The notes beneath the pieces are model-generated. The model ran no database searches and was not told the origin of the DNA. It worked only from the letters and a program-made list of their open reading frames with translations. Below are positions 887-50,000 of a DNA stretch of 64,000 bases, piece after piece. Source of the stretch: Patescibacteria group bacterium (lineage in GTDB: Bacteria > Omnitrophota > Gorgyraeia > Gygaellales > Profunditerraquicolaceae). The position numbers were made by a program, and so were the translations under genes. Numbering within the stretch: the stretch's first letter is position 1; each line of letters starts with the position of its first letter. The stretch spans positions 8,711 through 72,710 of the forward strand of contig DATJPV010000028.1 in the NCBI GenBank assembly GCA_035506195.1, read 5' to 3'.

Positions 887-2539
887 CTATTCTGCCTTCT
901 CCACTCTTACCAAATACTCGTTTCCCATTTCCTTGACAGGCGTGAGCCGAAAATCGCTGCCCGTAAGACGCTTCATGTCTTTAAGGGATCCCGCCTTGAG
1001 AATGCAGAACGTCCGGGATTGCCGAGACAGAAATTCCCTGACTTTGGCATCAGAGTTAAGAAAAGGAACGGGGTGCGGGCTAAAAAAGGGCGTGCCCGGA
1101 ATGTCGATCACGGCAACGTTTTTATCCGTATAATACCGCACCCCCCGAGTAAACATTTTGGAAACGATTATCGTATTATCCACTGCGCAATGACCCAGCA
1201 GATACTCTGCCATGCCCTTTGAAGAAACGTACGGGTCGATATCCTTGCTGAGGAAGGGGATCACGCACAGCGACAGAGGCAAAAGCGAGGTAAGTACGTA
1301 TGCGCCTTTTAAGAAATAGCGCCGCGCAGTAAAAAGAGCGAACGCAATGGATACAACCAGCCATAATCCCGCTAAGACATAAACCGGCAGCAGCGACGAA
1401 AGGTACCGCGAGGCCCTGGAGGAAGCCACCAGGAGCGCTATCGCTAACAACACACAGAAGGCAAACGTCATCCATGAAGCCAGAAAAAACAGACGGGCCC
1501 TGTTCTTAGGCGCCTTGATGTCGCCGATGAAATTCCCCGTGGTCAAGGCAAGGGCGGGAAAAAGGGGGAAAATATAGCTGGCTAATTTAGAATGCGCAAC
1601 CTGAAAAACGGAGAAGGTAACGACGATCCAGGAAGCCAAGAAAAGGTCCAACGGTTCCTTGTTCTTTACCGCCCTGTAGAACAGGATCGCTAACGCAGCC
1701 AAGGTAAACAAACTCCAGGGGAAAACCCCTAGGATCATGGTAAGGGGATAAAAATACCAGGAGTCGTTAAAGGAGTGTTCCGCTTCAAAGAGACGCCGGA
1801 TGTGACAGTTGACAAAAAACTCATGAACAAAACCATTACCGTAGTGCGTTACCATGAAAATGTACCAGGGGAAGGTAATCAAAACGAAAAGCATAGTCCC
1901 CCATAAGAACCTCTTGCAAAATATACGGTTCAATTCTTTCCTGACAGCCAGAAAGATACCCACCACACACAGTGGTATGATAAGTCCCAGGGGGCCCTTG
2001 GTAAGCACGGCGGCGCCGGCAAAGACAAAAAATAGGAAAACTCCCAGGTTCTGCCTACTGTTGCGCACGTACCCGGCCCAAAAGGAAAGGAGCGCTAAAA
2101 GTATCCAGACAGAGAAAATCATATCCGTAAAAACGGTACGGGCTAAACCGATATAAAAGCCACCCGATGCCAAGATAAGACTTGAGAGGAGGGCTTTTCT
2201 GCGGTCTCCAAAACCAAAAAGAGCAAAACAATATGTCCCCACCACCCCAATAGCCGCAAACACTGCCGGGAAAAACCGCGCGCCGAAACTAGAAACACCG
2301 AATAAAACAAAGGCGATGCGTAAAAGCCAATAAAGAAAAATGGGCTTTTCAAACTGCGGCGCGTCAAATAGATACGGAGTCATCCAGCTGCAATGCCGCA
2401 CCATCTCCTTCGCCGTCTGAACGTAAAACACTTCATCGGGGCTGGTAAGGCTGATAATACCGTTACCCCACACGAAAAAGAAATACGCCACAATGACAAG
2501 AAAAACCATATGCACGATGTGCTTATTGGTAAGTGACAT
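887..2539 (-). CDS. GT39/GT83 family glycosyltransferase (ArnT/PMT-like, lipid-linked sugar transferase), polytopic membrane protein
   Basis: N-terminal motif ...SPDEVFYVQTAKEM...W..P...APQFEKPIFLYWL... matches the ArnT/dolichyl-phosphate-mannose mannosyltransferase signature. Many TM helices. Start may be the internal Met at 2509. Confidence 0.7.
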   Translation of the reverse strand: MSLTNKHIVHMVFLVIVAYFFFVWGNGIISLTSPDEVFYVQTAKEMVRHCSWMTPYLFDAPQFEKPIFLYWLLRIAFVLFGVSSFGARFFPAVFAAIGVVGTYCFALFGFGDRRKALLSSLILASGGFYIGLARTVFTDMIFSVWILLALLSFWAGYVRNSRQNLGVFLFFVFAGAAVLTKGPLGLIIPLCVVGIFLAVRKELNRIFCKRFLWGTMLFVLITFPWYIFMVTHYGNGFVHEFFVNCHIRRLFEAEHSFNDSWYFYPLTMILGVFPWSLFTLAALAILFYRAVKNKEPLDLFLASWIVVTFSVFQVAHSKLASYIFPLFPALALTTGNFIGDIKAPKNRARLFFLASWMTFAFCVLLAIALLVASSRASRYLSSLLPVYVLAGLWLVVSIAFALFTARRYFLKGAYVLTSLLPLSLCVIPFLSKDIDPYVSSKGMAEYLLGHCAVDNTIIVSKMFTRGVRYYTDKNVAVIDIPGTPFFSPHPVPFLNSDAKVREFLSRQSRTFCILKAGSLKDMKRLTGSDFRLTPVKEMGNEYLVRVEKAE

Positions 2540-3275
2540 TGCCGCTCCTGGCTAATAGTTCACTAACGGTTACGCACCGATATCCGCGTTTTCTTAATTG
2601 TTCGACGAGCCTGAAAATAGTTTTGACGGTTTCTTGACGGTTGCCGCCCTCAACCGTGAAAACGCCCCCGCTGTCATGGAATAGGATAATATCACCCGGC
2701 CGGACATGATGCACGAGGAACCTGAGAATATACTTCTCGTCAAAGGTCACCCAATCTTTCGAATTCAACGACCACAATATTACTCTATATCCCATTGCGT
2801 TAATTTGTTTTTTTTCTGCGCTGGTAAGCCAGGCCTTGGGGGGCCTAAAATAACGCGTGGTCTTGCCGGTGATAGACTTGATGATGTTTTCGGCGACCTT
2901 TACCTCCCTTTCGAGTTCATACGGCTTATAATATAAAAGCACATGATGGTCATAGGAATGATTCTCGATTTCATGCCCTTCCGCGGCAACCCGCCTGGCT
3001 ATCTCGGGATATTGCTGCACATGTTCTCCGAGCATGAAAAAGGTGGCCTTCGCGTCCGAGCGCTTCAATTCATCCAGGATAGCGGGGGTCCATACCGGCG
3101 AGGGGCCGTCATCAAAGGTAAGCGCCACTAGTTTATCCGGCACGTTAACCCGATACACCGTACCTCTACGTACCAGCACTGCCTGATCAAAAAAGACGGT
3201 AAACGCTACAAAGGCAAGGCAGCATGTTACAAAGGAGCACATAAAAATGACGGCGAGTTTCTTTTTGTTCCCCAT
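2523..3275 (-). CDS. Polysaccharide deacetylase (NodB/CE4 family), N-terminal membrane anchor
   Basis: TFDDGPSP...ATFFMLGEHV...HEIENHSYDHH motifs of the NodB homology domain; N-terminal TM helix. Confidence 0.75.
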   Translation of the reverse strand: MGNKKKLAVIFMCSFVTCCLAFVAFTVFFDQAVLVRRGTVYRVNVPDKLVALTFDDGPSPVWTPAILDELKRSDAKATFFMLGEHVQQYPEIARRVAAEGHEIENHSYDHHVLLYYKPYELEREVKVAENIIKSITGKTTRYFRPPKAWLTSAEKKQINAMGYRVILWSLNSKDWVTFDEKYILRFLVHHVRPGDIILFHDSGGVFTVEGGNRQETVKTIFRLVEQLRKRGYRCVTVSELLARSGNVTYQ

Positions 3276-3288
3276 CTAGGGTGTCCTT

Positions 3289-4116
3289 TTAGCGCAAGGC
3301 TCCATAGGAAACCTTTTCGGCCAGGCGATATCCTGCGTACTTGTCCATCATATACCCTACTTCCCGTACGGCGTTATGATCGCGCCTCGCTCCAACCGGA
3401 CGCACATGCCTGACCGGCAAACAGTCGATAATGCCCATATTGGCATATCCGCACACAGAGCGGGCAAAGAGATCATAACCCCATCCCCAATAATTTTTTT
3501 CTGCCTCCATCTTATTCCAAAAACGCACCCAAGCCTCTGACGTAAAGACCGGCACCATAATTTCCACAAAATCAACATAACGCCCAACTTTATACGTTTT
3601 ATTCTGAAGCGTAATATCCCAGGTGAAATAAGAATCGGCTGTCAGCGCAGGCTGCGCAAGCTCTATGTTGTTTGTCTGCATTATGTTAACAAATTCGCTG
3701 GGCCTGAAATCAACAACATCGATATCGTCGCACCACAGGAAGAGATAGTCATAGTTGCTGCATACGGAAGGAGTAATGTATTTTTTCAGAAAGTAGAAAT
3801 GCAGTCCCTTTTCGCGTATAACAACGCACTTCCGGAAGATGTCTTCGTCAAATGAGGTATCGTCATACGCAAAAATTATATACTCAAACTGTTCGCACCC
3901 GAAGCGCCCAATAATTTTTTTAAGCCAAGGCTTGCCGTCCTCCCCTACCGGCGACGCATAGAGATAGCGGCCCCGCGGCTGTCGTTGGCGACCAGGAGCG
4001 GCCCTGTTATACAGACTGGTTTCTTTTTTCATCCTGCGGACATGCAGGAATTTTCTCCATCGTTTAAAAAGCTTAGGCCGCCGAAAAAAATCTATGGCGC
4101 TTCCGATTGCGGTCAT
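3289..4116 (-). CDS. Hypothetical protein, DUF707-like / putative nucleotide-sugar transferase-like
   Basis: ORF with an acidic DDIDVVD motif (DXD-like); sits between glycan enzymes. Start chosen at the internal Met to avoid overlap with the upstream gene. No confident family assignment. Confidence 0.4.
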   Translation of the reverse strand: MTAIGSAIDFFRRPKLFKRWRKFLHVRRMKKETSLYNRAAPGRQRQPRGRYLYASPVGEDGKPWLKKIIGRFGCEQFEYIIFAYDDTSFDEDIFRKCVVIREKGLHFYFLKKYITPSVCSNYDYLFLWCDDIDVVDFRPSEFVNIMQTNNIELAQPALTADSYFTWDITLQNKTYKVGRYVDFVEIMVPVFTSEAWVRFWNKMEAEKNYWGWGYDLFARSVCGYANMGIIDCLPVRHVRPVGARRDHNAVREVGYMMDKYAGYRLAEKVSYGALR

Positions 4117-4120
4117 GCTA

Positions 4121-4837
4121 CTATGTCTCCAAACATTTTTGCAGATACGCCGGTAAAAGCTCCACCTTTTTGGCGATCTGCGCATTAAGCAGAATTGCTA
4201 TACGGGTATTATCGCTTGCGGAAAAAATAGTATAGCGCTTCAAACAAAAGGTATCTTTCAAATGCTCTGCAATCATCTCTTCAACAGGACGATGGACGTC
4301 ATCAACTACGATCATCTTTACGTCCTTAAGAAGGGGGGGGATTAACGAAAAGAATGCCTTTGAATCGCGCCTATCCTTGCCTATAGCTGCCGGGCCATCG
4401 TAAAAAAGGAACTCGATATTCGTAATCCCTTGCAAGTTCTTTCTGATGAGCCTGTCATCATACCAATCCCCCCTCAAGGGGACGCGCCGCACAAACCCCC
4501 AGGGGAGAAAAAGAAAAGACAGGGCAATATTAAACTTGAAATAATAGTACAGGTGCTGTTCAAACGAAATGAATGTCCCGCCGAACTTGTGTACATACTC
4601 AGCGATATAGTGTGTGCTTCTCCCCGAACCAAATTCAACGATGGTCTTTGGTTTGACTATATACAATAACTGCTGAAGAATAAGCCAGAACTCATAGCAT
4701 TTTGTCGGCCACGTTTTTAAGCCGATGGCATGTCGTTTTTTTAATTTCCACCCGTCGAAGGCGTATTTGATCTGCCTTGCATACCATCGAGCCGTATAGG
4801 GCTTGTGTGGATTGCGAGGATCTGAAGAGCGAAACAT
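4121..4837 (-). CDS. Class I SAM-dependent methyltransferase, Methyltransf_24-like (glycan O-methyltransferase-like)
   Basis: Motif I-like IVEFGSGRSTHYIAE and a VVDDVH acidic motif. This family is common in LPS/capsule clusters. Confidence 0.55.
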   Translation of the reverse strand: MFRSSDPRNPHKPYTARWYARQIKYAFDGWKLKKRHAIGLKTWPTKCYEFWLILQQLLYIVKPKTIVEFGSGRSTHYIAEYVHKFGGTFISFEQHLYYYFKFNIALSFLFLPWGFVRRVPLRGDWYDDRLIRKNLQGITNIEFLFYDGPAAIGKDRRDSKAFFSLIPPLLKDVKMIVVDDVHRPVEEMIAEHLKDTFCLKRYTIFSASDNTRIAILLNAQIAKKVELLPAYLQKCLET

Positions 4838-5574
4838 TATTTTTTAACTCCTATGATGCCCGCGAAATTATACCAAGTAAAAAATGTATCGACTGTCTCA
4901 AACCCGCTGCGGCGCAATAACATAAGGTTCTCATCGAGTCGATAAGGAATTAAAACATTCTCCAGGGCTTCTCTTTTACGCGCAATCTCAAGCTTTGAGT
5001 AACCCCGTCGTTCTTTAAAAGCATGGTACAAATCAATAAATAACCTATTAGTCAAAGAATCTTTCCCGAGGATCTTGTCTACGATAATAAGCGCCCCGCC
5101 CTTTTGCAGGCTCTGGTAGATATTTTGAATCAGCGCGTCTCTTTGCAGAGGCCGTACAAACTGTAAGGTCAAGACAAGCAGGACAACGGATGCCTTTTCC
5201 ATGCGGAAAGGGCAATTAAGGTCTGCCTCGCGCAGGGAAACATTCTTCCACAACTTCTGTTCTCTCATTCTCTGCTTTGCCGCAGCCAGCATATGGGGAG
5301 AGCTGTCAACTCCAACCATCTTTACCTTGTTGTTGCGTAACGCCCTGACGATATTGCACATCGTAGTCCCTGTCGAACATCCCAAGTCATAAACCGACGT
5401 ATTCGCGGCTGCAAAGGACTTGGCTAGTTCTACTATCATGCGCTGGACCTCTTCGTAAAAAGGAACACTGCGTTCCAGCATTTCATCAAAAACTGAAGTT
5501 ACCTTTTCGTCAAAGACAAAGTCACCCACCTTTTTTTTCGTCGCAAAAAGCATGTCTTTATATTTCTTCGGCAT
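4837..5574 (-). CDS. cmoA-like: CmoA-family protein (carboxy-S-adenosyl-L-methionine synthase homolog)
   Basis: Strong collinear similarity to E. coli CmoA: VYDLGCS.G, DSSPHM, LTLQF, GGAL, GYSKLEI..KR..LENV, SGF, NF. Start is likely the MPKKYKDM or MLFATKKK Met. Confidence 0.75.
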   Translation of the reverse strand: MPKKYKDMLFATKKKVGDFVFDEKVTSVFDEMLERSVPFYEEVQRMIVELAKSFAAANTSVYDLGCSTGTTMCNIVRALRNNKVKMVGVDSSPHMLAAAKQRMREQKLWKNVSLREADLNCPFRMEKASVVLLVLTLQFVRPLQRDALIQNIYQSLQKGGALIIVDKILGKDSLTNRLFIDLYHAFKERRGYSKLEIARKREALENVLIPYRLDENLMLLRRSGFETVDTFFTWYNFAGIIGVKK

Positions 5575-6556
5575 GCACAGGCTCCTTCCTTGGATAATAA
5601 TGATCGGCGTAATCGTCGCATAGGCTGTAGTGTTGCCTAAAGGCATCTAAAAATATCATATGCGTGGGGCACTGGCATGTTTCTGCGGGGCAAGGGCGCG
5701 GCCCTGTCGCTAAACGGAGTCCTCCGGAAAGCAGGTCGTCAATCGAACCAAGCTTTTCCGTAAAGCAGCGCATTACTGTGCCGTCTTTATAGAGATTTAT
5801 CATATCCGACCCGGCATAACATAACGATCCCTTGGTGCGCTTTCCATACTGATATTCGAATTCAAGATCAGAGTAATAGTAGCGTCTTATTATGCCCAGG
5901 GTCCTCTTGGAATAAGCCTCAGGAAATACCGTCTTAATATCCATCAGTCTGCAGAGATTCTTATGGAGCCTCTTAAGCGGCCGCGGAACACGCGGTTGAT
6001 AACGGCCCAACAACAGGATGGGCTTTAAAAGGATGCCTTCGCTCCTAAAACGGCTGACGAACGACCCCAGTTGCCCTGCCCTTTCCGGCGTGACCACCAT
6101 TGTCGCAAACGCGCGCGAGCCGTACCGTTTAAGTTTAAGCATGTGCGTTATAAACTGTTCGATGCCGACAAAATCGGGATGAAAACTACAGTTAAAAACT
6201 GCCTTCGAGGGGTTGATGTGAGCCATATATACATCGGGGTCGAGGGAGTTATTCGTGATGAATTCAAAGCGGCTTACGTTCGGCAGGCCGCAGATGTAAA
6301 AACATATCTTCTGCGCCCAGTTATCGGCGAATATCTCTCCATCGAAATTCGCCTTTACCAACAGCCTGTCCTCAACCGCCCGCAACCTATCCCAAAGATT
6401 GCTGGCCTGGGTAAAATTATCGGCAGTAAAATCAACTTGCCGCACGCCGGCTTGATTACAGTAACGGCAGCGATAATTACAGCGGATGCGTCGTTTATCA
6501 TGTGGCAGAAAATCGCGAAAATTTATCCGCAAAGTCCCTGCCTGGGTTATTCTCAT
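5558..6556 (-). CDS. Radical SAM domain protein
   Basis: CNYRCRYC (CX3CX2C) 4Fe-4S/SAM cluster motif about 25 aa from the N-terminus; ~330 aa; embedded in the glycan cluster. Confidence 0.65.
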   Translation of the reverse strand: MRITQAGTLRINFRDFLPHDKRRIRCNYRCRYCNQAGVRQVDFTADNFTQASNLWDRLRAVEDRLLVKANFDGEIFADNWAQKICFYICGLPNVSRFEFITNNSLDPDVYMAHINPSKAVFNCSFHPDFVGIEQFITHMLKLKRYGSRAFATMVVTPERAGQLGSFVSRFRSEGILLKPILLLGRYQPRVPRPLKRLHKNLCRLMDIKTVFPEAYSKRTLGIIRRYYYSDLEFEYQYGKRTKGSLCYAGSDMINLYKDGTVMRCFTEKLGSIDDLLSGGLRLATGPRPCPAETCQCPTHMIFLDAFRQHYSLCDDYADHYYPRKEPVHAEEI

Positions 6557-7680
6557 AATAAGTGTCTTCTTATCCTATTAAGCTCAGACGCTCGCTGCCT
6601 CGGCGATACGTCGTGATACTTCTCGATGAAGGGCACCAATTTCATGGCGCAGGCAACGGCCTCGTCCATATCTAAATATTCAAAAAGGCCGAGCCGGCCG
6701 GCGGGGCATACGTTCGGTAAAGAGACGACGTAAGAAAGATATTTTTGGAACAATGCCTCGTTTCCTCCCGTGTGTACCGGGTACATCGGCACTTCTCCGT
6801 TACGGACAGCACAGGGCTGCTGGTACTGGATCAAATCGGGGGCCTGGACCTGGCGGTGCAGTATTCTGAAATTAGTTTTTCTTATAAACCTTGGGTGTTG
6901 AGGCAGATTAATGCCTCCGTATCTTTCCTCTTCCCATGTTTCGCCAGGGGCATACATAAACTTGGAGCTGCGATAATTGAGCCGTCCGTACCGGTATCCG
7001 GATATTTCATCGATAGGTGCGGTTGAAACGATGAGATCAAACTCCTTAGCATCCAATCTATTTACGTTTTTTTGAAGGGATATCCCCCGGCTCATCCGTT
7101 CTAGCCACACAGAATATCCCTCGATAGGCAAACCCTGCCATTCGCCTTTAAAAAGCTCTTCGTTATTGCACTCACGTAGCATCAATCTCTTGGGAGCCCA
7201 ATGAGCCGAAAGCTCATCCGGAGGGACACCCCACATTTTACGCGTATAGTTACTGATAAAGTATTTATATAATGTTTTACCGAACACACAGATACAGGCG
7301 GTTTCGAAATTCGATTGATTTATCTTACGGGGCCTTGCCTTCAATTCCTTCATTATTTTAGCGGCATCGGGTAAGAGGGTAATTGCGCGCAGGGTAATCG
7401 GGAAAGGGAGGAGCCGGCCCTTGATAATAACCCCTTTGTAATGCCGGTAGCCATTGAAAGCAGAAAATTTTTCGACAAATGCCTTCACTTCCTCGTCGCA
7501 GGTATGGAAAATTCTTGGGCCGCATGGTTCATATAATAAGCCCCACTCGTTGCGGTCGCTTATGCATAACCCGCCAATCCGCTTGTTCTTTTCGAAAAGA
7601 GAGACCTTGTGTCCCCGGTCAACTAATAGCCGTGCTAAGGAACAGCCGGTAAGTCCTGCGCCGAGAATGCCTATCTTCAT
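6553..7680 (-). CDS. glf: UDP-galactopyranose mutase
   Basis: N-terminal FAD Rossmann MKIGILGAGLTGC...EK..RIGG; conserved RIFHT, RYGRLNYRSSKF and GRLGLFEYLDMDEAV regions match Glf. Confidence 0.85.
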   Translation of the reverse strand: MKIGILGAGLTGCSLARLLVDRGHKVSLFEKNKRIGGLCISDRNEWGLLYEPCGPRIFHTCDEEVKAFVEKFSAFNGYRHYKGVIIKGRLLPFPITLRAITLLPDAAKIMKELKARPRKINQSNFETACICVFGKTLYKYFISNYTRKMWGVPPDELSAHWAPKRLMLRECNNEELFKGEWQGLPIEGYSVWLERMSRGISLQKNVNRLDAKEFDLIVSTAPIDEISGYRYGRLNYRSSKFMYAPGETWEEERYGGINLPQHPRFIRKTNFRILHRQVQAPDLIQYQQPCAVRNGEVPMYPVHTGGNEALFQKYLSYVVSLPNVCPAGRLGLFEYLDMDEAVACAMKLVPFIEKYHDVSPRQRASELNRIRRHLL

Positions 7681-8319
7681 TTACTCGTCGTCATCCTTCC
7701 ATGGAAGAAAAGGACTGTCCTGGGCTAGGCCGCCTAAGGTAACCGGGGAAGCCAGATATGGCCGCAGACCAAAGCTATCGACTTTGGCGCCAAGCAAATC
7801 GCTGCCCATTTGATTCCAACGCAACGAGCCGGGATCCATCTGTCTGGCTTCCCGATAACAGGCTTCCATAAGTTCACAGCCTGCCGGGGCCTTGATTATT
7901 GCTGCACAAATTTTGGTCCCGCCGTTTACGTTATGTTCAGTCGCAAATACATATTCGTTCCCAAAGTCTAACTGCTTTAAGCACACCACATCTAAATCGC
8001 TCCATATGCCGCCTTTATCCAAAAGAAGTTTATACCTAAAGAGATTCGAAAACCCCGCATAGCTACCTTTGCCGACTTTTCGTTTGTATTTAAAAATCGT
8101 CTCCTTGGGCACCATTTTATTTGCGTCTTTTACCACTACGCCCTCCGGGACATCCCGCATTGTCGCAAAGGCGTAAAGATGAACGGCATGGCCACGGGCG
8201 AGAAATGAGTTAAGAGACAGCCGCTCCATCAGGGATAAACTTTTACCTATCCATAATCCCTGGATTATCTCATTGTTTTTCTTCATGGGGTATGGGCAAT
8301 TTTTAATCGCGGCGAGCAA
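7681..8319 (-). CDS. Glycosyltransferase, DXD sugar-binding motif family (GT32-like)
   Basis: IIQGLWIG N-terminal motif and DLDVVCL (DXD) characteristic of the Gly_transf_sug / alpha-1,4-galactosyltransferase-like family. Confidence 0.55.
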   Translation of the reverse strand: MLAAIKNCPYPMKKNNEIIQGLWIGKSLSLMERLSLNSFLARGHAVHLYAFATMRDVPEGVVVKDANKMVPKETIFKYKRKVGKGSYAGFSNLFRYKLLLDKGGIWSDLDVVCLKQLDFGNEYVFATEHNVNGGTKICAAIIKAPAGCELMEACYREARQMDPGSLRWNQMGSDLLGAKVDSFGLRPYLASPVTLGGLAQDSPFLPWKDDDE

Positions 8320-8361
8320 GATGTAAATGCTCTTATCGAAGAATAAGAAAGGCGTCTAAAG

Positions 8362-8433
8362 CTGCCCCGCATGGACTCGAACCATGATAGTCAGATCCAG
8401 AATCTGAAGTCCTACCGGTTAGACGACAGGGCA
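8362..8433 (-). tRNA. tRNA-Gln (anticodon CTG)
   Basis: Reverse complement folds as a cloverleaf: acceptor TGCCCTG/CGGGGCA, anticodon stem TCAGA/TCTGA with loop TTCTGGA (CUG), T-arm CATGG-TTCGAGT-CCATG. 72 nt, CCA not encoded. Confidence 0.8.
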
Positions 8434-8548
8434 AAGCGTTTATCTAGAGAGATTACCCGCCCAGGCTATGCCTAAAACAGGACGGGACAGATGCGTGTAT
8501 TATTATAATATCCTCTGGTGCTTCTGACAAGCAGGTTTTTACCCGTTT

Positions 8549-9297: not shown

Positions 9298-9687
9298 TTA
9301 AAACGGTCCTTCGTACTTTTGCTTTGGCTTTGCGTATTCCTGTTTGCGCCGCAGGAGCTGAGCCTTGTGCAGGTCCATACAGTTGATAACGAGCGGTTTA
9401 TTCACTTCAAGGAATTCGATGCCGATGACAAAAGAACTATCGTGCCTTTTGAGTTCATTGCTATACTTGACCTTGCCTTTGCCTGTAAGATGCTCTCCGC
9501 AGACCTCGGTGAGCACGTCAAATGCCACTACGCTACCCGGTTCCAGCCGATGGTTTGCACGGACGCAAAACCCGCCAAAACTAAGATTAGCTAATATACC
9601 CCGGATTGCCTGCTGGGCTCCAGATTCGGGCATCAGGTTTGCGAAGCCTTCGATTTCGTGCCGGGCATGGTTACGCGCTTGATGCAT
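9298..9687 (-). CDS. PilZ domain protein (putative c-di-GMP receptor)
   Basis: RxxxR (RNHAR) followed by (D/N)xSxGG (NLSFGG), the hallmark PilZ c-di-GMP-binding motifs. Confidence 0.55.
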   Translation of the reverse strand: MHQARNHARHEIEGFANLMPESGAQQAIRGILANLSFGGFCVRANHRLEPGSVVAFDVLTEVCGEHLTGKGKVKYSNELKRHDSSFVIGIEFLEVNKPLVINCMDLHKAQLLRRKQEYAKPKQKYEGPF

Positions 9688-9693
9688 CTGGTC

Positions 9694-10092
9694 TTACGGC
9701 CTCCTCTCCAGCAAACCGATGATGCGATTGATCTTATCCACCAAAGAATGTACAAGGTCTTTCTTGCGGATAGTAATGCGCACGGAATAGTTCCCTGCCA
9801 ACACCTCATCGAGCATGGACTCAATGCGTTGTAAAGGGCCGAGGCTGCGGTGTAAGAGCACGCACGTACTTGCCAGAAGAATAAAAATGACGCCCAGGAA
9901 ACTGACTTGCATGATCAGAAAATTGGTCTTCCAGGCAGAAGAATACTGAAAGTTGGTCTGTAACTCCGAAACCATCTTCCAGGCAGAATAAAAATTGACA
10001 ACTACCAGGACGGCAATGTAGACCAACGCAAAATGCACGAACTTAAAAGTGTGCCTGCGCAACCAGAACACCGCTCTGCGTCTCTCTCTCAT
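9694..10092 (-). CDS. Small membrane protein with HAMP-like linker
   Basis: Two TM helices followed by an amphipathic HAMP-like segment (LQRIESMLDEVLAGNYSVRI). Confidence 0.35.
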   Translation of the reverse strand: MRERRRAVFWLRRHTFKFVHFALVYIAVLVVVNFYSAWKMVSELQTNFQYSSAWKTNFLIMQVSFLGVIFILLASTCVLLHRSLGPLQRIESMLDEVLAGNYSVRITIRKKDLVHSLVDKINRIIGLLERRP

Positions 10093-10107
10093 ATGCGCTC
10101 CTCTTGA

Positions 10108-10521
10108 TTAATAGTAACCCTGCGTCCCCGACCAGTTACCGGCTGCATCCAGGTTAATCTGATATGCGTCGCGGCCCTGGGGAGGCTTGCCGCCAGACGT
10201 GCAGCGCGTGGCCTCGATGGTAAAATCGACGGCGTTGGCGGCAGTGAGGGCAAAAGAATACCAATGGCTGGGCATGCACGTTTCCGGATACACGATAGCC
10301 AGGTCCGCCGAGTTGCCGGTATACGTAAAATGCTCCATGAAATAGGCGAATTGGGCTCTGCGTATCTGCCCAAGGTTCATTTTGGCTTCGGCGGTACGGC
10401 TCTTTTCGACAATGGCCCCAAACTGCGCCATTCCTATAAGCGACAGGACGGAAATAATGATGAGCGTCACTGTTAATTCCATAAGCGTAAAGCCGGGGGC
10501 AAGGAGGCGATGTGCACGCAT
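10108..10521 (-). CDS. Prepilin-type N-terminal cleavage/methylation domain protein (type IV pilin / pseudopilin)
   Basis: GFTLMELTVTLIIISVL class III signal (G|FTLxE) shortly after the start Met; globular C-terminus with Cys pair. Confidence 0.65.
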   Translation of the reverse strand: MRAHRLLAPGFTLMELTVTLIIISVLSLIGMAQFGAIVEKSRTAEAKMNLGQIRRAQFAYFMEHFTYTGNSADLAIVYPETCMPSHWYSFALTAANAVDFTIEATRCTSGGKPPQGRDAYQINLDAAGNWSGTQGYY

Positions 10522-10523
10522 GT

Positions 10524-10721
10524 CTACCAGAGGTTTTCGCGTATCCACTCATCCGCTTTTTTGATCGAATACCAGAAGCTTGAAGTATCTTCGCTAAGGC
10601 CTTCAACGGTAGCAGAGGTAGTATTCGCCGCGCCTTCGGCTGTGCCCTTGGCGGTCTGACAGCCAGCCAGTAGTAGAGCTATCCCGGATAACGCGCATAG
10701 CAGCAGGACGATCTTTTTCAT
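10524..10721 (-). CDS. Small lipoprotein
   Basis: MKKIVLLLCALSGIALLLAGC lipobox signal peptide, then ~45 aa hydrophilic. Confidence 0.4.
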   Translation of the reverse strand: MKKIVLLLCALSGIALLLAGCQTAKGTAEGAANTTSATVEGLSEDTSSFWYSIKKADEWIRENLW

Positions 10722-39905: not shown

Positions 39906-40409
39906 CTAGGCCCAGTCGCGCATTGCTAGCTTTTCTACGATAACTTCTTTCGACGGATATAAATTTACGATGATCTCATCCGGCTTGAACCAGAGCTTGA
40001 TTTCTCTCTCTGCCTCGGATTCGTTTGAAGAAACGTGGATCACGTTCTCATAAAGCCCTTTCGTGGTAATCCTGCCGTAAGCCCCGCGTATAGAAGTAGG
40101 ATCCGCTTCCTCCGGGTTGGTCGCGCCGGCAAGCTCCCGGCATTTTTTGATCGCGTCTCGACCCCAGTACACCAGAGCCATAACCTTACGCCGGTCATGA
40201 AGCTCTCCCTGCAAGTAGCGAATGAGCTCCTCAAAAAAAGGCTGGTCTTTCAGATGTTTATAGTGCTCGGTCGCCAGTTCGCAGGATACCCGCACCATTT
40301 TCGCAGCCATAATCTCTAGCTTTGTCTCCGATAGCCTGGTAAGGATGTTGCCGGTGAGCGATTTTTTTAACCCATCGGGTTTAATAAGGATTAAGACTGC
40401 CTGGCTCAT
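39906..40409 (-). CDS. ndk: Nucleoside diphosphate kinase-like protein
   Basis: LILIKPDGL...NVIHVSSNESEAEREI (NDK active-site His region), with a C-terminal extension. Confidence 0.7.
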   Translation of the reverse strand: MSQAVLILIKPDGLKKSLTGNILTRLSETKLEIMAAKMVRVSCELATEHYKHLKDQPFFEELIRYLQGELHDRRKVMALVYWGRDAIKKCRELAGATNPEEADPTSIRGAYGRITTKGLYENVIHVSSNESEAEREIKLWFKPDEIIVNLYPSKEVIVEKLAMRDWA

Positions 40410-41275
40410 GTAGTGTTTCCTCCTTTGATCCGATTGACGATCCTTTCTAGGTCTTCCTGCGAGTAAAACTCGATTACGATGCGCCCGCGTTTTTTTTGTT
40501 TGCTCACCCGGACCTTTGTCGCCAAAATGTGCTGCAGCTGTTCTTCGATAGCCGATACATAAAGATCGCCCGAACCTTGACGCACCTTTGGTTTAACCAG
40601 CCGCGGGCGTTTAGTTTTAAGCAGGTTTTCCAACTCTCGAACGGAAAGGTTTTTGCTGATAATTTCCTGGAGAAGCCGACGCTGTTGATTGGCGTCGTCT
40701 AACTCAAGGAGCGCGCGGCCGTGCGCAAAAGAAATACGCCCCCTACGCATCTCCTGTTGAATCTCGTGCGGTAAATTCAATAACCGTAATGTGTTAGCAA
40801 TTGTAGCCCTGGCCTTACCGAGTAATTCGCTAAGCCTGTCCTGGCTTAAATGAAATTTGTCGATCAGGTGTTTATATGCATGGGCCTCTTCGATGGGATT
40901 CAGATCTTGTCTTTGGATATTTTCGATCAAAGACAATTCTAACGAATCTTCATCTTCAGCATCCTTGATAATAGCTGGTATCTCTTTTAATTGCAATATG
41001 TTAGCTGCACGAAAACGGCGTTCACCGGCAATCAGCTCGTAATAATCTCCCGAGCGCCGCACGATGACCGGCTGAATAATGCCTTTTTCTTTGATCGATT
41101 GGGTTAGCTCTTGGAGGCCCTGGTCATCAAAATGTTCGCGGGGCTGTAAAGGATTCGGCTTGATTTGAGCTATGCTCAATCGCAAAACGTCGGCACCGCC
41201 AGTCTCGCTCTTCTGTTCTTTTTCCCTTTCGGGGATCAATGCGCCTATGCCTCTTCCTAATACCTTTTTATCCAT
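40406..41275 (-). CDS. parB: Chromosome partitioning protein ParB/Spo0J
   Basis: ParB box QPREHFD..L.ELT.SIKEKGIIQPVIVR, GERRFRA, HTH region. Confidence 0.9.
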   Translation of the reverse strand: MDKKVLGRGIGALIPEREKEQKSETGGADVLRLSIAQIKPNPLQPREHFDDQGLQELTQSIKEKGIIQPVIVRRSGDYYELIAGERRFRAANILQLKEIPAIIKDAEDEDSLELSLIENIQRQDLNPIEEAHAYKHLIDKFHLSQDRLSELLGKARATIANTLRLLNLPHEIQQEMRRGRISFAHGRALLELDDANQQRRLLQEIISKNLSVRELENLLKTKRPRLVKPKVRQGSGDLYVSAIEEQLQHILATKVRVSKQKKRGRIVIEFYSQEDLERIVNRIKGGNTT

Positions 41276-41290
41276 GCTCTCTCCTAAAAT

Positions 41291-42094
41291 TTATTGTCCC
41301 GCGGTTGTTGCTTCTGTACCATTAGGCTGGACCGCAGGTAATCCTAACATTTCTCTTACGAGGGCTTCGTATTTTTGCGCACCGATAGAATCCTTATCAT
41401 ATAACGCTACGGGCTTGCCAAAACTTGGAGCTTCGGTTAAGCGCACGCTGCGCGGAATAACTGTTTGGTAGACCTTGTCCTTAAAATAATTCCTTACTTC
41501 GTGAATCACCTCTTTCGTTAAATTTGTTCGAAAATCCGCCATGGTCAATAAAACTCCTTCGATGCCAAGCGAAGGATTGAGATTATCTTTCACAAGTTTA
41601 ATCGTATTAATAAGTTGTGTGACTCCTTCAAGGGCGTAATATTCGCATTGAACCGGCACAAGCACTGAATCTGAAGCACATAACGCGTTAATGGTCAATA
41701 GCCCCAGTGATGGCGGAGAGTCATTAAGAATGAAGTCGAAATTTTCCTTTTCCTTCTGCAACGCCTTTTTAAGCCGATATTCTCTCCCTAGTGCGCTGAC
41801 TAATTCTACTTCCGCACCAGTAAGATCGAGATTCGATGGTGCAACAAAAAAATTGTTAATTGCGGTGGTTTGGATAATTTCCTTGATGTCCAGCTCTTCG
41901 AGGATTACGTGGTAGGTACTCTGTTTTACATTGTGCCGGTTGATGCCGGCGCCGCTGGTGGCATTAGCTTGAGGATCTAAATCAACCAGCAAAACTTTTT
42001 TTCCGGCCAAGGCAAGATATGCAGCGAGATTAACTGCCGTCGTAGTTTTACCGGTGCCGCCTTTCTGATTGCAGATGGCAACAATTTTGCCCAT
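41291..42094 (-). CDS. parA: Chromosome partitioning ATPase ParA/Soj
   Basis: KGGTGKTTTAVNLAA deviant Walker A, DLDPQANAT. Confidence 0.9.
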   Translation of the reverse strand: MGKIVAICNQKGGTGKTTTAVNLAAYLALAGKKVLLVDLDPQANATSGAGINRHNVKQSTYHVILEELDIKEIIQTTAINNFFVAPSNLDLTGAEVELVSALGREYRLKKALQKEKENFDFILNDSPPSLGLLTINALCASDSVLVPVQCEYYALEGVTQLINTIKLVKDNLNPSLGIEGVLLTMADFRTNLTKEVIHEVRNYFKDKVYQTVIPRSVRLTEAPSFGKPVALYDKDSIGAQKYEALVREMLGLPAVQPNGTEATTAGQ

Positions 42095-42142
42095 TTACAG
42101 AATGTAAATTTGTAATTGCATTATTTATATAAAGTTACGCTA

Positions 42143-42158
42143 TGTTCCACGCGGAACA
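42143..42158. promoter_or_regulatory. parS-like centromere site TGTTCCACGCGGAACA (14/16 match to TGTTNCACGTGAAACA) upstream of parA
   Basis: Near-palindromic 16-mer in the AT-rich parA leader. Confidence 0.5.
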
Positions 42159-42213
42159 TTTTACCCGGCGACTGTCTTTACAAAGAACATTATCTTGCTT
42201 AAAAACAAACTTG

Positions 42214-42414
42214 TCAAGATTTTTCTTGTTGCGCAATTACGGTAACGCGTATCTTGGCAGGTTTAGCGCCGGGCATCCCAAACAGGCCTTTTTTCTCCTC
42301 GGAAAGCACTTCAATTTTTACTTTTTCCCGGGGAAGCTTCAATTCCTTCAGGGCTTTTTTTATCGCTTCTTCTATGGTTCTGCCCTCTACTTCTACACCT
42401 AATTTATCACTCAT
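42214..42414 (-). CDS. Jag_N-domain small protein (N-terminal domain of KhpB/Jag only)
   Basis: 66 aa, MSDKLGVEVEGRTIEEAIKKALKELKLPREKVKIEVL matches the Jag N-terminal domain; immediately downstream of yidC as in the conserved yidC-jag pair. Confidence 0.55.
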   Translation of the reverse strand: MSDKLGVEVEGRTIEEAIKKALKELKLPREKVKIEVLSEEKKGLFGMPGAKPAKIRVTVIAQQEKS

Positions 42415-43943
42415 TTGAGCCTGTTTATTTTAAATTGATTAAAAAGCATAATGGAACTATTGACCAGCCAGTACAATACCAAACCTGCGGGCATATTATA
42501 AAATATAAACAAAAACATCACCGGCATTATTATTGTCATTATTTTTTGTTGCTCATTTGCAGTTGCGCTTACGGCAGTCATTGATAGTTTTTGTTGTATA
42601 AACATAATCGCGGTCATTAATATTGGTAAAAGATTGATCTCTTTAATTGGACCAATTGCGGAGAAAGAAAATAAACGATCTGGCTGCGAAAGATCATTAA
42701 TCCACAGAAAATGTGCGCCTTTAAGTGATATCGACCGTATCATGGCTTGATATAGTGCAAAAAACACAGGTATTTGCAAAATTAAAGGTAAACAACCGCC
42801 CAATGGATTGACTTTATGGATCCGATATAAATCCATCATCTCTTTATTTAATTTTTGCGGATTATCCTTGTAAATTTTTCGCAGTTCTTCAATTTTTGGT
42901 TGCAATACCTGCATTTGTTTCATTGAGCGCATTTGTTGTAAAGAAAGAGGATAGAGCAAAAGAGAGATGCAGATGCTAAAAAGTATGATTGCCCAACCCC
43001 AATTATGCGCTATTCCATAAAGCCAATCTAAAATTTGAATTAATATGTGAGAAATAAAATCAAAGGTTCCGAAATATAAAACTGCAGTATACTCTGGATT
43101 GATTTGATTGATTAATTTTAATTCCTGTGGCCCTAAATAGATACGAAATTCTTGCACACTAGTTTTTCCAGTCTGTATCGTAATCGCTTTTGCGCTTAGG
43201 CCTATTTCCGATTCTTGTGCATTGATTTTACGTACAAAAGCAGAATAACCCGGAGATTTTGGTTGAATAATATTACAAAAATAATGATCTCGCAAACCTA
43301 AAAAGCGGATATTCTCAAAAATAGCATCTTTTTTAGCGCCGTTATGTATTGTTTTATCCGAAGTAACTACAGTAATATCTTTAAACCGGGTCTCAACTTG
43401 GTCTCCAGAAAAGTCTAAAATCCCAAGAATAATACCGGGATTAAACTCAATCTCCTTAGTGGATAAGTTTTGTACTTCTATATATAAATCTATGGTATAA
43501 TTTGAGTTATGAAAAATAAAACGTTTAATAACCTGTTTATCCTTATCTCGATGGACAAACAGCGCAGTATCGGAAGAGCTATTTTGTCGCTTAAAAAGCA
43601 AGTTTTTGTCAGTCAAGAGAAATCCTGATTTTAACGAAAAGTCGTAATTCTGGTATTTTTTAAAAACTGTATGTTTAATGATTGCAAGCTGTTCTATAAA
43701 TACAGGCTCACCTTTATCTTGCGGAAAAATAAAGGTAGTGGCGGGAGTTTCCGGTGCTTCCTCCGGAACAGCGGCAGGCAGAGATGTCGCCGGCGAAGGC
43801 GCGATCGACGGCTGGGAGGGTTTTGGTAGGGATACGGACCTTAAGGCTGTATTCTCCGGAGGCCGAAGCCGCGAAACAAGCGCCGACCACCCGAATATTA
43901 CTAAAAAGGACATTGCTATTGCGATAATTGTACGTTTTTCCAT
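42411..43943 (-). CDS. yidC: Membrane protein insertase YidC
   Basis: N-terminal TM, large periplasmic domain, C-terminal 5-TM core with ...QQ.KM..LQP... and PLGGCLP motifs. Confidence 0.9.
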   Translation of the reverse strand: MEKRTIIAIAMSFLVIFGWSALVSRLRPPENTALRSVSLPKPSQPSIAPSPATSLPAAVPEEAPETPATTFIFPQDKGEPVFIEQLAIIKHTVFKKYQNYDFSLKSGFLLTDKNLLFKRQNSSSDTALFVHRDKDKQVIKRFIFHNSNYTIDLYIEVQNLSTKEIEFNPGIILGILDFSGDQVETRFKDITVVTSDKTIHNGAKKDAIFENIRFLGLRDHYFCNIIQPKSPGYSAFVRKINAQESEIGLSAKAITIQTGKTSVQEFRIYLGPQELKLINQINPEYTAVLYFGTFDFISHILIQILDWLYGIAHNWGWAIILFSICISLLLYPLSLQQMRSMKQMQVLQPKIEELRKIYKDNPQKLNKEMMDLYRIHKVNPLGGCLPLILQIPVFFALYQAMIRSISLKGAHFLWINDLSQPDRLFSFSAIGPIKEINLLPILMTAIMFIQQKLSMTAVSATANEQQKIMTIIMPVMFLFIFYNMPAGLVLYWLVNSSIMLFNQFKINRLK

Positions 43944-43946
43944 GGT

Positions 43947-44162
43947 TTACTCTAGAGGGTCATATCCGGAGTGCGAAGAGAAGGGATGGCATTTACACAG
44001 GCGCCTCACCGCTTTTGCCGCGCCGACAACGACCCCGTATTTTTCAATTGCCTGCTTGGCATACTCCGAGCAGCTCGGAAAGAAGCGGCAGCAGGGTGGC
44101 AACGCAACCCGAAGGCATTGCTGATAGAAAGCGATAGCACTAAGACAAGTGCGCGAAAGCAT
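43947..44162 (-). CDS. yidD: Membrane protein insertion efficiency factor YidD
   Basis: YQ..LS...PP.CRF.PSCSEYA..A....G highly conserved YidD signature; start overlaps the rpmH stop (TAATG). Confidence 0.85.
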   Translation of the reverse strand: MLSRTCLSAIAFYQQCLRVALPPCCRFFPSCSEYAKQAIEKYGVVVGAAKAVRRLCKCHPFSSHSGYDPLE

Positions 44163-47168: not shown

Positions 47169-47245
47169 TGAAAAATCATTTGAGTTTTGGGAAAATTAGT
47201 GTTATATTCAACGACCAATAAGCCGGTCTTTATCGGGATGCCGCG

Positions 47246-49998
<2,753 letters not shown>

Positions 49999-50000
49999 CG

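What the first reader, a model, noticed from the sequence alone, without database searches (positions are those of the whole stretch)
4121..5574. CmoA (carboxy-SAM synthase) homolog paired with a second methyltransferase-fold protein in a non-tRNA context
The 4837-5574 ORF aligns collinearly with E. coli CmoA, which makes carboxy-S-adenosylmethionine from SAM and prephenate. In canonical systems CmoB transfers the carboxymethyl group to tRNA U34. No cmoB is visible here. The neighbour is instead a Methyltransf_24-like protein typical of sugar O-methyltransferases. This suggests Cx-SAM (or a related SAM analogue) may serve as a donor for carboxymethylation of a sugar or lipid. That would be a new use of Cx-SAM.
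Basis: inference. Interest (0 to 1): 0.6.

Follow-up and report, generated by a model that had tools for sequence, protein, structure and literature searches.

The report
Carboxy-SAM synthase paired with glycan methyltransferase-like enzyme
An uncultured bacterium carries a gene for the enzyme that makes the rare cofactor carboxy-SAM fused into an operon for building a cell-surface sugar polymer, directly coupled to a catechol-O-methyltransferase-like enzyme, which suggests (but does not prove) that bacteria use carboxy-SAM to put carboxymethyl groups on envelope sugars, a use not yet described.

Summary
The minus-strand ORF 4837-5574 is a genuine CmoA-family protein: it scores 248.5 bits on TIGR00740 (cut-off 193.3) and keeps Arg199 and most cofactor contacts. 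Its TAA stop overlaps the ATG of the 238-aa ORF 4121-4837. That partner models as a cation-dependent COMT/CCoAOMT-like class I methyltransferase. No cmoB lies in the 64 kb.

Both genes sit in an eight-gene operon (887-8319) for a glycan or glycolipid. It encodes a DXD glycosyltransferase, a UDP-galactopyranose-mutase homologue, a radical SAM protein, CmoA, the partner, DUF707, a NodB deacetylase and an ArnT-like GT-C.

The partner family is rare. A CmoA-family gene lies directly upstream of it in 13 of 19 distinct contexts, down to about 30% identity of both proteins. Wherever the flanks can be read, they hold polysaccharide genes.

The wider CmoA clade is never next to cmoB. In 70 of 80 genomes it is followed by a PEMT/LmtA-like membrane methyltransferase, and one member is fused to chorismate mutase.

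Best reading: a Cx-SAM synthase plus a dedicated carboxymethyltransferase acting on an envelope sugar. The chemistry is untested. Two relatives have lost cmoA but keep the partner. Non-tRNA uses of Cx-SAM (peptide, microcin, phage DNA) are already known, so this is a new variant of a known kind.

The parts
7681..8319 (-). First operon gene: a 212-aa glycosyltransferase with a DXD sugar-binding region.
   Evidence: Pfam Gly_transf_sug, E 3.6e-7, 31.2 bits (cut-off 23). Its stop abuts the start of the next gene. It is present only in the window's version of the cluster.
6553..7680 (-). UDP-galactopyranose mutase homologue (375 aa), a flavoenzyme that makes a furanose sugar nucleotide.
   Evidence: Pfam GLF E 1.5e-33. 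TIGR00031 gives 199.5 bits, below the 303.75 cut-off. Full-length match to solved UGMs, E 2.5e-43. Conserved next to the radical SAM gene in L005, L010, L011, L092 and L093.
5558..6556 (-). Radical SAM protein (332 aa) with a CNYRCRYC (CX3CX2C) motif; a distant relative of the STM4011 family. Function unknown.
   Evidence: NCBIfam NF038073 at 72.7 bits, below the 200 cut-off. No Pfam hit and no PDB relative. It overlaps cmoA by 17 nt. Conserved in the core module.
4837..5574 (-). CmoA-family carboxy-SAM synthase homologue (245 aa).
   Evidence: TIGR00740 at 248.5 bits, above the 193.3 cut-off. PDB 4GEK E 3.7e-50. Y39, D62, G64, S66, D89, D117, F137, D164 (Glu in E. coli; Byrne et al. report Asp as the only alternative in the family) and R199 are kept; N132 is Val and F133 is Leu.
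4121..4837 (-). 238-aa COMT/CCoAOMT-fold class I methyltransferase-like protein; candidate carboxymethyltransferase.
   Evidence: AF2 model pLDDT 81.7. Foldseek top hits are COMT, TrmR and cation-dependent OMTs. Motif I is VEFGSGRST. D147 and D179-D180 align with the DAD...DN metal ligands of 8c9s and 3dul. Its ATG overlaps the cmoA stop. A CmoA-family gene lies directly upstream in 13 of 19 contexts.
3289..4116 (-). DUF707 protein (275 aa as called in the source contig). Function unknown.
   Evidence: Pfam DUF707, E 5.1e-30. It follows the partner in L010, L011, L092 and L093. No PDB relative by sequence.
2523..3275 (-). NodB-type polysaccharide deacetylase (250 aa).
   Evidence: Pfam Polysacc_deac_1, E 9.5e-36. 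It overlaps the next gene by 17 nt.
887..2539 (-). ArnT/PMT-like GT-C membrane glycosyltransferase (550 aa); last operon gene.
   Evidence: Pfam PMT E 9e-17 and PMT_2 E 5.5e-15. The best NCBIfam match is the ArnT model NF009784 at 174.7 bits, far below its 567 cut-off. The next gene is a convergent MFS transporter.

Best explanation
Proposed mechanism, with shown and inferred steps marked. The 887-8319 minus-strand operon builds or decorates a cell-envelope glycan or glycolipid. Within it, the CmoA homologue converts SAM plus prephenate into carboxy-SAM. The translationally coupled COMT-fold protein, probably metal-dependent through D147/D179/D180, uses that cofactor instead of SAM. It would transfer a carboxymethyl group onto a sugar hydroxyl, or possibly onto the amine freed by the NodB deacetylase. 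This would give an anionic glycolate-ether (or N-carboxymethyl) sugar. The ArnT-like GT-C would then deliver that sugar to its final acceptor outside the cytoplasmic membrane. Shown: family membership of CmoA, the fold of the partner, operon structure, recurrence of the gene pair, and the glycan context. Inferred: Cx-SAM synthesis by this protein, Cx-SAM use by the partner, and the identity of the acceptor.
For: (1) CmoA membership: TIGR00740 above the curated cut-off. Arg199, the only residue contacting the Cx-SAM carboxylate in E. coli CmoA (PMC4482062, PMC3663124), and most SAM contacts are conserved. The one notable substitution, N132V, is also non-Asn (Leu) in the biochemically validated phage SpCmoA (PMC12783734). 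(2) A clade member 57% identical to the window protein is fused to chorismate mutase, the enzyme that makes CmoA's co-substrate prephenate. (3) Operon: eight genes with overlaps or gaps of at most 13 nt; the cmoA TAA overlaps the partner's ATG. (4) Recurrence: a CmoA-family gene lies directly upstream of a partner-family gene, always in the same order and with a gap of at most 19 nt where measured, in 13 of 19 distinct contexts. These include pairs in which both proteins are only about 30% identical to the window's (L107, L108). Pairwise identities of the two proteins co-vary (Spearman 0.78). (5) Context: the readable flanks hold GT4, GT2, Wzx, sugar epimerases, hexose dehydratase, DegT, WbqC and ABC-transporter genes. 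In L004 an AsnB-type amidoligase follows the pair, parallel to CmoY, which amidates the carboxymethyl group in the phage system. (6) The CmoA clade as a whole is not linked to cmoB: 0 of 80 genome loci have it within 10 kb. Instead it is linked to other methyltransferase folds: PEMT/LmtA-like in 70 of 80, plus FkbM/RfbT-like and Methyltransf_11. (7) COMT-fold enzymes can use Cx-SAM, as shown by engineering (PMC7496830).
Against: There is no biochemical evidence of any kind. Close relatives keep an intact partner without cmoA: L010 has none, and L093 has a cmoA with residues 39-204 deleted. Family members without an adjacent cmoA (29% identical to the window's partner in L105, 44-50% in L094 and L099) sit in similar glycan clusters, which suggests the ancestral activity is ordinary SAM-dependent methylation. 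No residue separates cmoA-linked from unlinked partners, so no Cx-SAM-binding determinant is identified. The partner's resemblance to known OMTs is remote (Pfam below cut-off, TM about 0.55). I found no report of natural O-carboxymethyl sugars in bacterial glycans. A cmoB elsewhere in the genome cannot be excluded.
Confidence: 0.55

Rival explanations
1. The partner is an ordinary SAM-dependent sugar O-methyltransferase. The CmoA homologue supplies Cx-SAM for something else, such as an unlinked cmoB acting on tRNA or another transferase, and sits in the operon without a functional link to its neighbour.
For: Partner-family members occur in glycan clusters without cmoA (L105, L099, L094). cmoA was lost or pseudogenised next to an intact partner in L010 and L093. 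No specificity-determining residue was found.
Against: A chance neighbour would not recur directly upstream in 13 of 19 contexts across about 30-100% identity of both proteins, with start/stop overlap. This CmoA clade is not next to cmoB in any of 80 genomes and is habitually paired with other methyltransferase folds.
Confidence: 0.22
2. The pair does perform Cx-SAM-dependent carboxymethylation, but the acceptor is not a sugar. It could be a lipid head group, a lipid-carrier intermediate, a protein or a small metabolite made by the radical SAM and UGM-like enzymes.
For: COMT-fold enzymes act on very diverse acceptors. The conserved core (UGM-like, radical SAM, CmoA, partner, DUF707) contains two proteins of unknown function. 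The sister CmoA clade pairs with lipid-type PEMT/LmtA-like enzymes.
Against: In the L004, L007 and L103 contexts the pair occurs without the UGM/radical SAM/DUF707 core, but with classical O-antigen-type genes.
Confidence: 0.13
3. The partner is a TrmR/YrrM-like tRNA ho5U34 alkyltransferase that replaces CmoB, so the pair makes cmo5U in tRNA after all.
For: TrmR structures (5zw3, 8k1f) are among the top Foldseek matches. JGI labels one homologue 'predicted O-methyltransferase YrrM'.
Against: COMT and CCoAOMT-like enzymes score equally well. The family is very rare: 14 clusters at 90% identity in 5.8 billion proteins, and 40 representatives below 1e-30, unlike a housekeeping tRNA enzyme. It is embedded in glycan clusters, and its distribution does not follow any lineage.
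Confidence: 0.04
4. The CmoA homologue of this clade is not a Cx-SAM synthase. It would be a plain methyltransferase or make a different SAM derivative.
For: Asn132 and Phe133 of E. coli CmoA are replaced. It is only 36% identical to E. coli CmoA. No member of this clade has been assayed.
Against: It scores above the curated equivalog cut-off. Arg199 is invariant in all 80 genome relatives and all partner-linked copies. A clade member is fused to chorismate mutase. The validated SpCmoA is far more divergent (115.6 bits) and also lacks Asn132.
Confidence: 0.06

Closest known systems
CmoA/CmoB tRNA cmo5U34 pathway (E. coli, Salmonella)
   Same: The same first enzyme family: CmoA, a prephenate-dependent Cx-SAM synthase with Arg199. 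The same two-gene logic, with the synthase immediately upstream of a transferase of methyltransferase fold.
   Different: The transferase is not CmoB. There is no tblastn match, and no CmoB-type N-terminal extension or CmoB family signature is detectable (238 aa against 323 aa). The context is glycan biosynthesis rather than tRNA modification. The CmoA belongs to a distant clade that is never adjacent to cmoB.
MccS/MccB-CTD of the Bacillus amyloliquefaciens microcin C-like cluster (PMC10491745)
   Same: A CmoA homologue supplies Cx-SAM to a methyltransferase-fold enzyme unrelated to CmoB, inside a biosynthetic cluster. This is the closest precedent for the logic proposed here.
   Different: The acceptor there is a peptidyl-cytidylate antibiotic and the transferase is a domain of MccB. 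Here the transferase is a free-standing COMT-fold protein in a polysaccharide operon.
Phage S-B43 CmoA/CmoX/CmoY DNA 5-carboxymethylcytosine system (PMC12783734)
   Same: A CmoA is recruited away from tRNA and paired with a repurposed methyltransferase. An AsnB-type amidoligase follows the pair, as in locus L004.
   Different: The acceptor is DNA cytosine C5 and the transferase is a C5-MTase homologue. SpCmoA is only about 25% identical to the window's CmoA.
TglE/TglF of 3-thiaglutamate biosynthesis (Pseudomonas syringae; PMC10491745)
   Same: A non-tRNA natural use of Cx-SAM by a CmoA homologue plus a transferase.
   Different: TglF is a true CmoB homologue with Lys91 conserved, and the acceptor is a peptide thiol.
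Cation-dependent class I O-methyltransferases (COMT, CCoAOMT-like, TrmR; Pfam Methyltransf_3/24), including COMT engineered to use cxSAM (PMC7496830)
   Same: The fold, motif I and the aligned acidic metal-ligand positions. Engineered COMT and CNMT do transfer carboxymethyl from cxSAM.
   Different: Sequence similarity is below family thresholds. DGP replaces DAD and DD replaces DN. The natural cofactor is unknown.
Arn (L-Ara4N) lipid A modification pathway: ArnD deformylase plus ArnT
   Same: A NodB-fold deacetylase gene overlaps an ArnT-like GT-C gene at the operon end. This suggests modification of a lipid-linked sugar followed by periplasmic transfer.
   Different: The ArnT model score is far below its cut-off (174.7 against 567). 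No ArnA, ArnB or ArnC homologues are present. The sugar and acceptor are unknown.

Membership tests
CmoA (carboxy-SAM synthase, TIGR00740) | Full-length match to the curated equivalog model above its trusted cut-off. | tested here: met
   248.5 bits against a cut-off of 193.3, profile positions 1-239 of 239. PDB 4GEK E 3.7e-50.
CmoA (carboxy-SAM synthase, TIGR00740) | Arg199 (E. coli numbering), which forms the salt bridge to the carboxylate of Cx-SAM. | tested here: met
   Arg is present in the window protein, in all partner-linked copies of the main clade and in 80 of 80 genome relatives. Its role is taken from PMC3663124 and PMC4482062.
CmoA (carboxy-SAM synthase, TIGR00740) | SAM-moiety contacts Tyr39, Asp62, Gly64, Ser66, Asp89, Asp117, Asn132, Phe137 and Glu164. 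| tested here: inconclusive
   Eight of nine are kept, counting Glu164 as conservatively Asp. Asn132 is Val. The validated SpCmoA has Leu at that position, so the change is probably tolerated.
CmoA (carboxy-SAM synthase, TIGR00740) | Catalysis of SAM + prephenate -> Cx-SAM + phenylpyruvate. | not testable with these tools
   Only indirect support: a clade member (P0132) is fused to chorismate mutase.
CmoA/CmoB tRNA cmo5U system | A cmoB gene adjacent to, or co-occurring with, cmoA. | tested here: not met
   No cmoB in the 64-kb window (best tblastn E 1.0), nor within 10 kb of 80 clade members. The rest of the genome could not be searched.
CmoB-type carboxymethyltransferase | Homology to CmoB, including its unique N-terminal ~100 residues and the Lys91/Tyr200/Arg315 carboxylate site. 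| tested here: not met
   The partner has no detectable similarity to E. coli CmoB, and the top 50 Foldseek matches contain no entry described as CmoB. It is 238 aa against 323 aa.
Cation-dependent class I O-methyltransferases (COMT/CCoAOMT-like; Pfam Methyltransf_24/Methyltransf_3) | A Pfam family match above the gathering threshold. | tested here: not met
   Methyltransf_24 at 17.2 bits against 26.3, E 0.0095. Two homologues, P0009 and P0014, carry a precomputed PF13578 hit.
Cation-dependent class I O-methyltransferases (COMT/CCoAOMT-like; Pfam Methyltransf_24/Methyltransf_3) | Rossmann-type class I fold with the Gly-rich motif I and an acidic residue at the end of strand 2. | tested here: met
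   AF2 model pLDDT 81.7. Foldseek probability 1.00 to COMT, TrmR and CCoAOMT-like structures. E68-x-G70-x-G72 is invariant and E93 nearly invariant (at least 90%) across the 47 family members.
Cation-dependent class I O-methyltransferases (COMT/CCoAOMT-like; Pfam Methyltransf_24/Methyltransf_3) | The Asp/Asp/Asn metal-binding triad (DAD...DN). | tested here: inconclusive
   Invariant D147 and D179-D180 align with the triad of 8c9s and 3dul, but only in a weak profile match (E 0.014). Metal binding was not tested.
Cx-SAM-dependent transferase (functional class) | A basic residue positioned to bind the carboxymethyl carboxylate, and a preference for Cx-SAM over SAM. | not testable with these tools
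   Nearly invariant (at least 90%) basic residues exist (K46, K84, R157; R73 and R183 are also usually basic). None discriminates cmoA-linked from unlinked members. Model coordinates could not be inspected.

The most novel reading that the evidence does not exclude
Bacteria use carboxy-SAM to carboxymethylate cell-envelope molecules. Here a COMT-fold enzyme would put a glycolate ether (or N-carboxymethyl group) on a surface glycan. The same logic would extend to a much larger clade of CmoA homologues paired with LmtA/PEMT-like membrane enzymes in Verrucomicrobiota, Bacteroidota, Rhizobiaceae, Acidobacteriota and others. In that case, most CmoA homologues outside the classical cmoAB operon would serve envelope chemistry rather than tRNA modification.
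Probability: 0.45. Interest if true: 0.78.

Novelty: new variant of a known kind. Interest (0 to 1): 0.62.

Why it matters
Cx-SAM is one of very few natural SAM analogues. Only four acceptor classes are known: tRNA, a RiPP peptide, a peptidyl-nucleotide and phage DNA. A sugar or lipid acceptor would add a new class of envelope modification, an ether-linked carboxylate that changes surface charge. It would also provide a natural COMT-fold carboxymethyltransferase, which enzyme engineers have so far had to create by mutagenesis. The related CmoA plus PEMT/LmtA-like pair occurs in genomes of named strains (Rhizobium herbae DSM 26427, Ensifer adhaerens L18, Mycoplana ramosa DSM 7292). The general idea is therefore directly testable by knockout and mass spectrometry.

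Tried and rejected
- The genome scan with the single CmoA protein found nothing, because its patterns were too specific. It was repeated with alignment A2.
It was repeated with A1.
- The PDB sequence search with the partner profile A1 gave only a spurious glutaconate CoA-transferase hit. Profile A3 gave weak but collinear OMT hits.
- The Kim et al. 2013 Nature paper is not held. Residue roles were taken from PMC3663124 and PMC4482062.
- I looked for a residue that distinguishes cmoA-linked from unlinked partners. None was found; K46 and R183 each fail in a single unlinked sequence only.
- I asked whether an AsnB-type amidoligase generally accompanies the pair. It does so only in L004.
- I asked whether the operon is a tRNA-bounded island with att repeats. 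No such repeat exists.
- The tRNA-analogue (TrmR-like) reading was rejected on context and rarity.
- A literature search for natural O-carboxymethyl sugars and for glycan or lipid carboxymethyltransferases found nothing relevant.
- I did not model DUF707 or the radical SAM protein, because their folds would not change the verdict on the pair.
Full report
**Observation**

The window carries a tight run of eight minus-strand genes from 8319 down to 887.

- ORF 4837-5574 (245 aa) is a bona fide CmoA-family protein. It scores 248.5 bits on the NCBIfam equivalog TIGR00740, above the 193.3 cut-off.
- It aligns over its whole length with the two solved CmoA structures, E. coli 4GEK (E 3.7e-50) and H. 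influenzae 1IM8. It is 36% identical to E. coli CmoA over 242 residues.
- Homologues begin at the same MPKKYKD N-terminus, so 5574 rather than 5646 is the start.
- ORF 4121-4837 (238 aa) begins with an ATG whose A is the last base of the cmoA TAA stop.
- Its only Pfam match, Methyltransf_24, is below threshold (17.2 against 26.3 bits). However, an AlphaFold2 model built on 12 homologues (pLDDT 81.7) matches catechol O-methyltransferase, TrmR and bacterial or plant cation-dependent O-methyltransferases (Foldseek E about 1e-6, TM 0.5-0.57).
- No E. coli-type cmoB is present in the 64 kb (best tblastn E 1.0).
- The rest of the window is housekeeping: gltX, 2-oxoacid:ferredoxin oxidoreductase, dxs, pheST, thrS, infC, and parAB-yidC / dnaA-dnaN-gyrBA.

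**Is the CmoA homologue likely to be active?**

Byrne et al. (PMC3663124) and Kim et al. (PMC4482062) identify Arg199 as the sole contact to the carboxylate of Cx-SAM. They also list the SAM contacts Tyr39, Asp62, Gly64, Ser66, Asp89, Asn90, Asp117, Asn132 and Phe137, plus the conserved Glu164.

- The window protein keeps Tyr39, Asp62, Gly64, Ser66, Asp89, Asp117, Phe137 and Arg199, and has Asp for Glu164. Asn132 is Val and Phe133 is Leu.
- I fetched the experimentally validated phage Cx-SAM synthase SpCmoA (PMC12783734; locus L104). It has Leu at the Asn132 position and scores only 115.6 bits on TIGR00740. The substitution therefore does not disqualify the window protein.
- A clade member 57% identical to the window protein (P0132) is fused to a type II chorismate mutase, the enzyme that produces CmoA's co-substrate prephenate.

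**The operon**

In order of transcription:

1. a 212-aa DXD glycosyltransferase;
2. a full-length UDP-galactopyranose mutase homologue;
3. a 332-aa radical SAM protein (CX3CX2C; a distant STM4011 relative);
4. CmoA;
5. the COMT-fold partner;
6. a DUF707 protein;
7. a NodB-type polysaccharide deacetylase;
8. an ArnT/PMT-like GT-C membrane glycosyltransferase.

Neighbouring genes overlap or are at most 13 nt apart. This is an envelope glycan or glycolipid operon, not a tRNA-modification locus. The deacetylase/GT-C pair at its end recalls ArnD/ArnT.

**Does the pairing recur?**

The window comes from an ENA metagenome contig. Its nearest named relatives are Candidatus Omnitrophota MAGs.

The partner family is rare. 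It has 14 clusters at 90% identity in 5.8 billion proteins. An exhaustive profile search found 40 representatives below 1e-30.

I recovered 19 distinct genomic contexts.

- In 13 of them a CmoA-family gene lies immediately upstream, co-directional, with start and stop overlapping or at most 19 nt apart.
- These 13 include two pairs (L107, L108) in which both proteins are only about 30% identical to the window's. Their CmoA-like proteins score 132-134 bits on TIGR00740, which is more than the validated SpCmoA.
- Pairwise identities of the two proteins co-vary (Spearman 0.78 over 36 comparisons). In a neighbour-joining tree the partner-linked CmoAs form their own small clades.
- Where flanks are long enough, they hold GT4 and GT2 glycosyltransferases, Wzx flippases, sugar-nucleotide epimerases, a hexose dehydratase, a DegT aminotransferase, WbqC and an ABC-transporter ATPase.
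- In L004 an AsnB-type amidoligase follows the pair. This echoes CmoY, which amidates the carboxymethyl group in the phage system.

A five-gene core (UGM-like, radical SAM, CmoA, partner, DUF707) is shared by the window, L011 and L092. L005 has the first four genes before its contig ends. L010 and L093 have the same core without a functional cmoA.

**The exceptions**

- L010 has the core without cmoA.
- L093 has a cmoA pseudogene in which residues 39-204 are deleted, while the partner is intact.
- L094/L095, L099 and L105 have the partner without cmoA; the longer contigs L099 and L105 show it inside glycan clusters. L106 is too short to judge.

The family therefore probably descends from ordinary SAM-dependent glycan O-methyltransferases, and the link to cmoA is strong but not obligatory. 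I found no residue that separates linked from unlinked members. The family invariants are motif I (E68, G70, G72, S74) and D147, P149, D179, D180; E93 and the W43-x-T45-K46 loop are nearly invariant (at least 90%). D147 and D179-D180 align with the DAD...DN metal ligands of cation-dependent OMTs. By offset from motif I, the WxTK loop corresponds to the Met40-Val42 loop of COMT that lines the SAM methyl and methionine end (my inference). That is the region Herbert et al. mutated to make COMT accept cxSAM (PMC7496830).

**The wider CmoA clade**

A motif scan of 185,579 species genomes returned at least 588 relatives. Among the best 80 (48-55% identity; Verrucomicrobiota, Bacteroidota, Rhizobiaceae, Acidobacteriota, Brocadia, Omnitrophota and others), none has cmoB within 10 kb.

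- In 70 of the 80, a ~241-aa multi-pass membrane protein follows cmoA at a median distance of 4 bp. It belongs to Pfam PEMT. Its best NCBIfam match is LmtA, the Leptospira lipid A 1-phosphate O-methyltransferase, though below the cut-off.
- In some of the remaining loci cmoA abuts other methyltransferase folds: Methyltransf_11 in an Omnitrophota genome, an FkbM/RfbT-like protein, and a class I methyltransferase.

The window's pair is thus one instance of a general pattern: a CmoA from this clade plus a non-CmoB transferase tied to the envelope.

**Mechanism and rivals**

- Most likely (about 0.55): CmoA makes Cx-SAM, and the coupled COMT-fold enzyme carboxymethylates a sugar of the operon's product.
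- Main rival (about 0.22): the partner is a plain SAM-dependent O-methyltransferase and the adjacency is not functional. This is supported by the exceptions and contradicted by the recurrence.
- A non-sugar acceptor (about 0.13), a TrmR-like tRNA role (about 0.04) and a non-Cx-SAM product (about 0.06) are less likely.

**Comparison with what is known**

Non-tRNA uses of Cx-SAM are already published: TglE/TglF, MccS/MccB-CTD and phage CmoA/CmoX/CmoY (PMC10491745, PMC12783734). The concept is therefore not new. Full-text searches found no report of a glycan or lipid acceptor, of a COMT-fold natural carboxymethyltransferase, or of natural O-carboxymethyl sugars in O-antigens. I therefore rate it a new variant of a known kind. 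It is of moderate-to-high interest and rests entirely on computation.

Noticed in passing
Loci L012-L091 (e.g. L012 10001-11436; L036 10001-11475): In 70 of the 80 closest genome relatives of this CmoA, a ~241-aa membrane protein follows cmoA by about 4 bp. It belongs to the PEMT/ICMT family, and its best NCBIfam match is LmtA, a lipid A 1-phosphate O-methyltransferase (sub-threshold). None of the 80 loci has cmoB within 10 kb. The taxa include Rhizobium, Ensifer, Akkermansia, Bacteroidota, Acidobacteriota and Brocadia. This suggests a widespread, undescribed Cx-SAM-dependent lipid or lipid A modification.
   Followed up: partly
L109 129-2049 (protein P0132): A chorismate mutase (CM_2)-CmoA fusion protein of 367 aa, followed by a PEMT-family gene. 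This is a Rosetta-stone link between prephenate supply and this CmoA clade.
   Followed up: partly
L093 6972-7120: A cmoA pseudogene. Residues 10-38 are joined to frameshifted remnants of residues ~205-245 (an internal deletion of about 166 codons), lying between an intact radical SAM gene and an intact partner gene.
   Followed up: yes
L107 2560-3264 and L108 618-1343: Divergent CmoA-like proteins sit upstream of distant partner homologues. They score 132-134 bits on TIGR00740, below the cut-off but above the validated phage SpCmoA. As in SpCmoA, the Arg199 column is not Arg, and an Arg appears four residues later (L-R-G/D), possibly a shifted carboxylate contact.
   Followed up: partly
window 8361-8433 (-) and 8502-8530 (-); L011 7015-7089; L093 4361-4437: A tRNA-Gln(CUG) gene lies 42 bp upstream of the operon's first gene. 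It is preceded by the best sigma-70-like site in the region (TTGTCA-17-TATAAT). The related module in L011 also follows tRNA-Gln(CUG), and the one in L093 follows tRNA-Met. No att-like direct repeat was found. G+C across the operon (4001-6000: 0.454; 2001-8000: 0.45-0.49) is below that of the flanking sequence from about 10 kb onwards (0.52-0.55). The module may be co-transcribed with the tRNA or may have been acquired next to it.
   Followed up: partly
window 40406-52433: Chromosomal replication-origin neighbourhood: parB, parA and yidC on the minus strand, then dnaA, dnaN, gyrB and gyrA on the plus strand. The gene-strand switch and the cumulative GC-skew minimum fall near 42-46 kb, and G+C dips to 0.38 at 42-44 kb. 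Near-consensus DnaA boxes occur at 44538 and 44560.
   Followed up: partly
L004 1310-12799: A polysaccharide cluster with three B12-binding radical SAM proteins, GT4, Wzx, the CmoA-partner pair and a 665-aa AsnB-type glutamine amidotransferase directly after the partner. The arrangement is reminiscent of the phage CmoA/CmoX/CmoY logic of carboxymethylation followed by amidation.
   Followed up: partly
window 9298-10548 (-): Upstream of the tRNA there is a PilZ-domain protein, a small membrane protein and a pilin-like protein with an N-terminal methylation motif (ComP_DUS, weak). They lie next to gltX and are not obviously related to the operon.
   Followed up: no
window 55115-59665 (+): A 1516-aa ORF that I did not characterise.
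   Followed up: no
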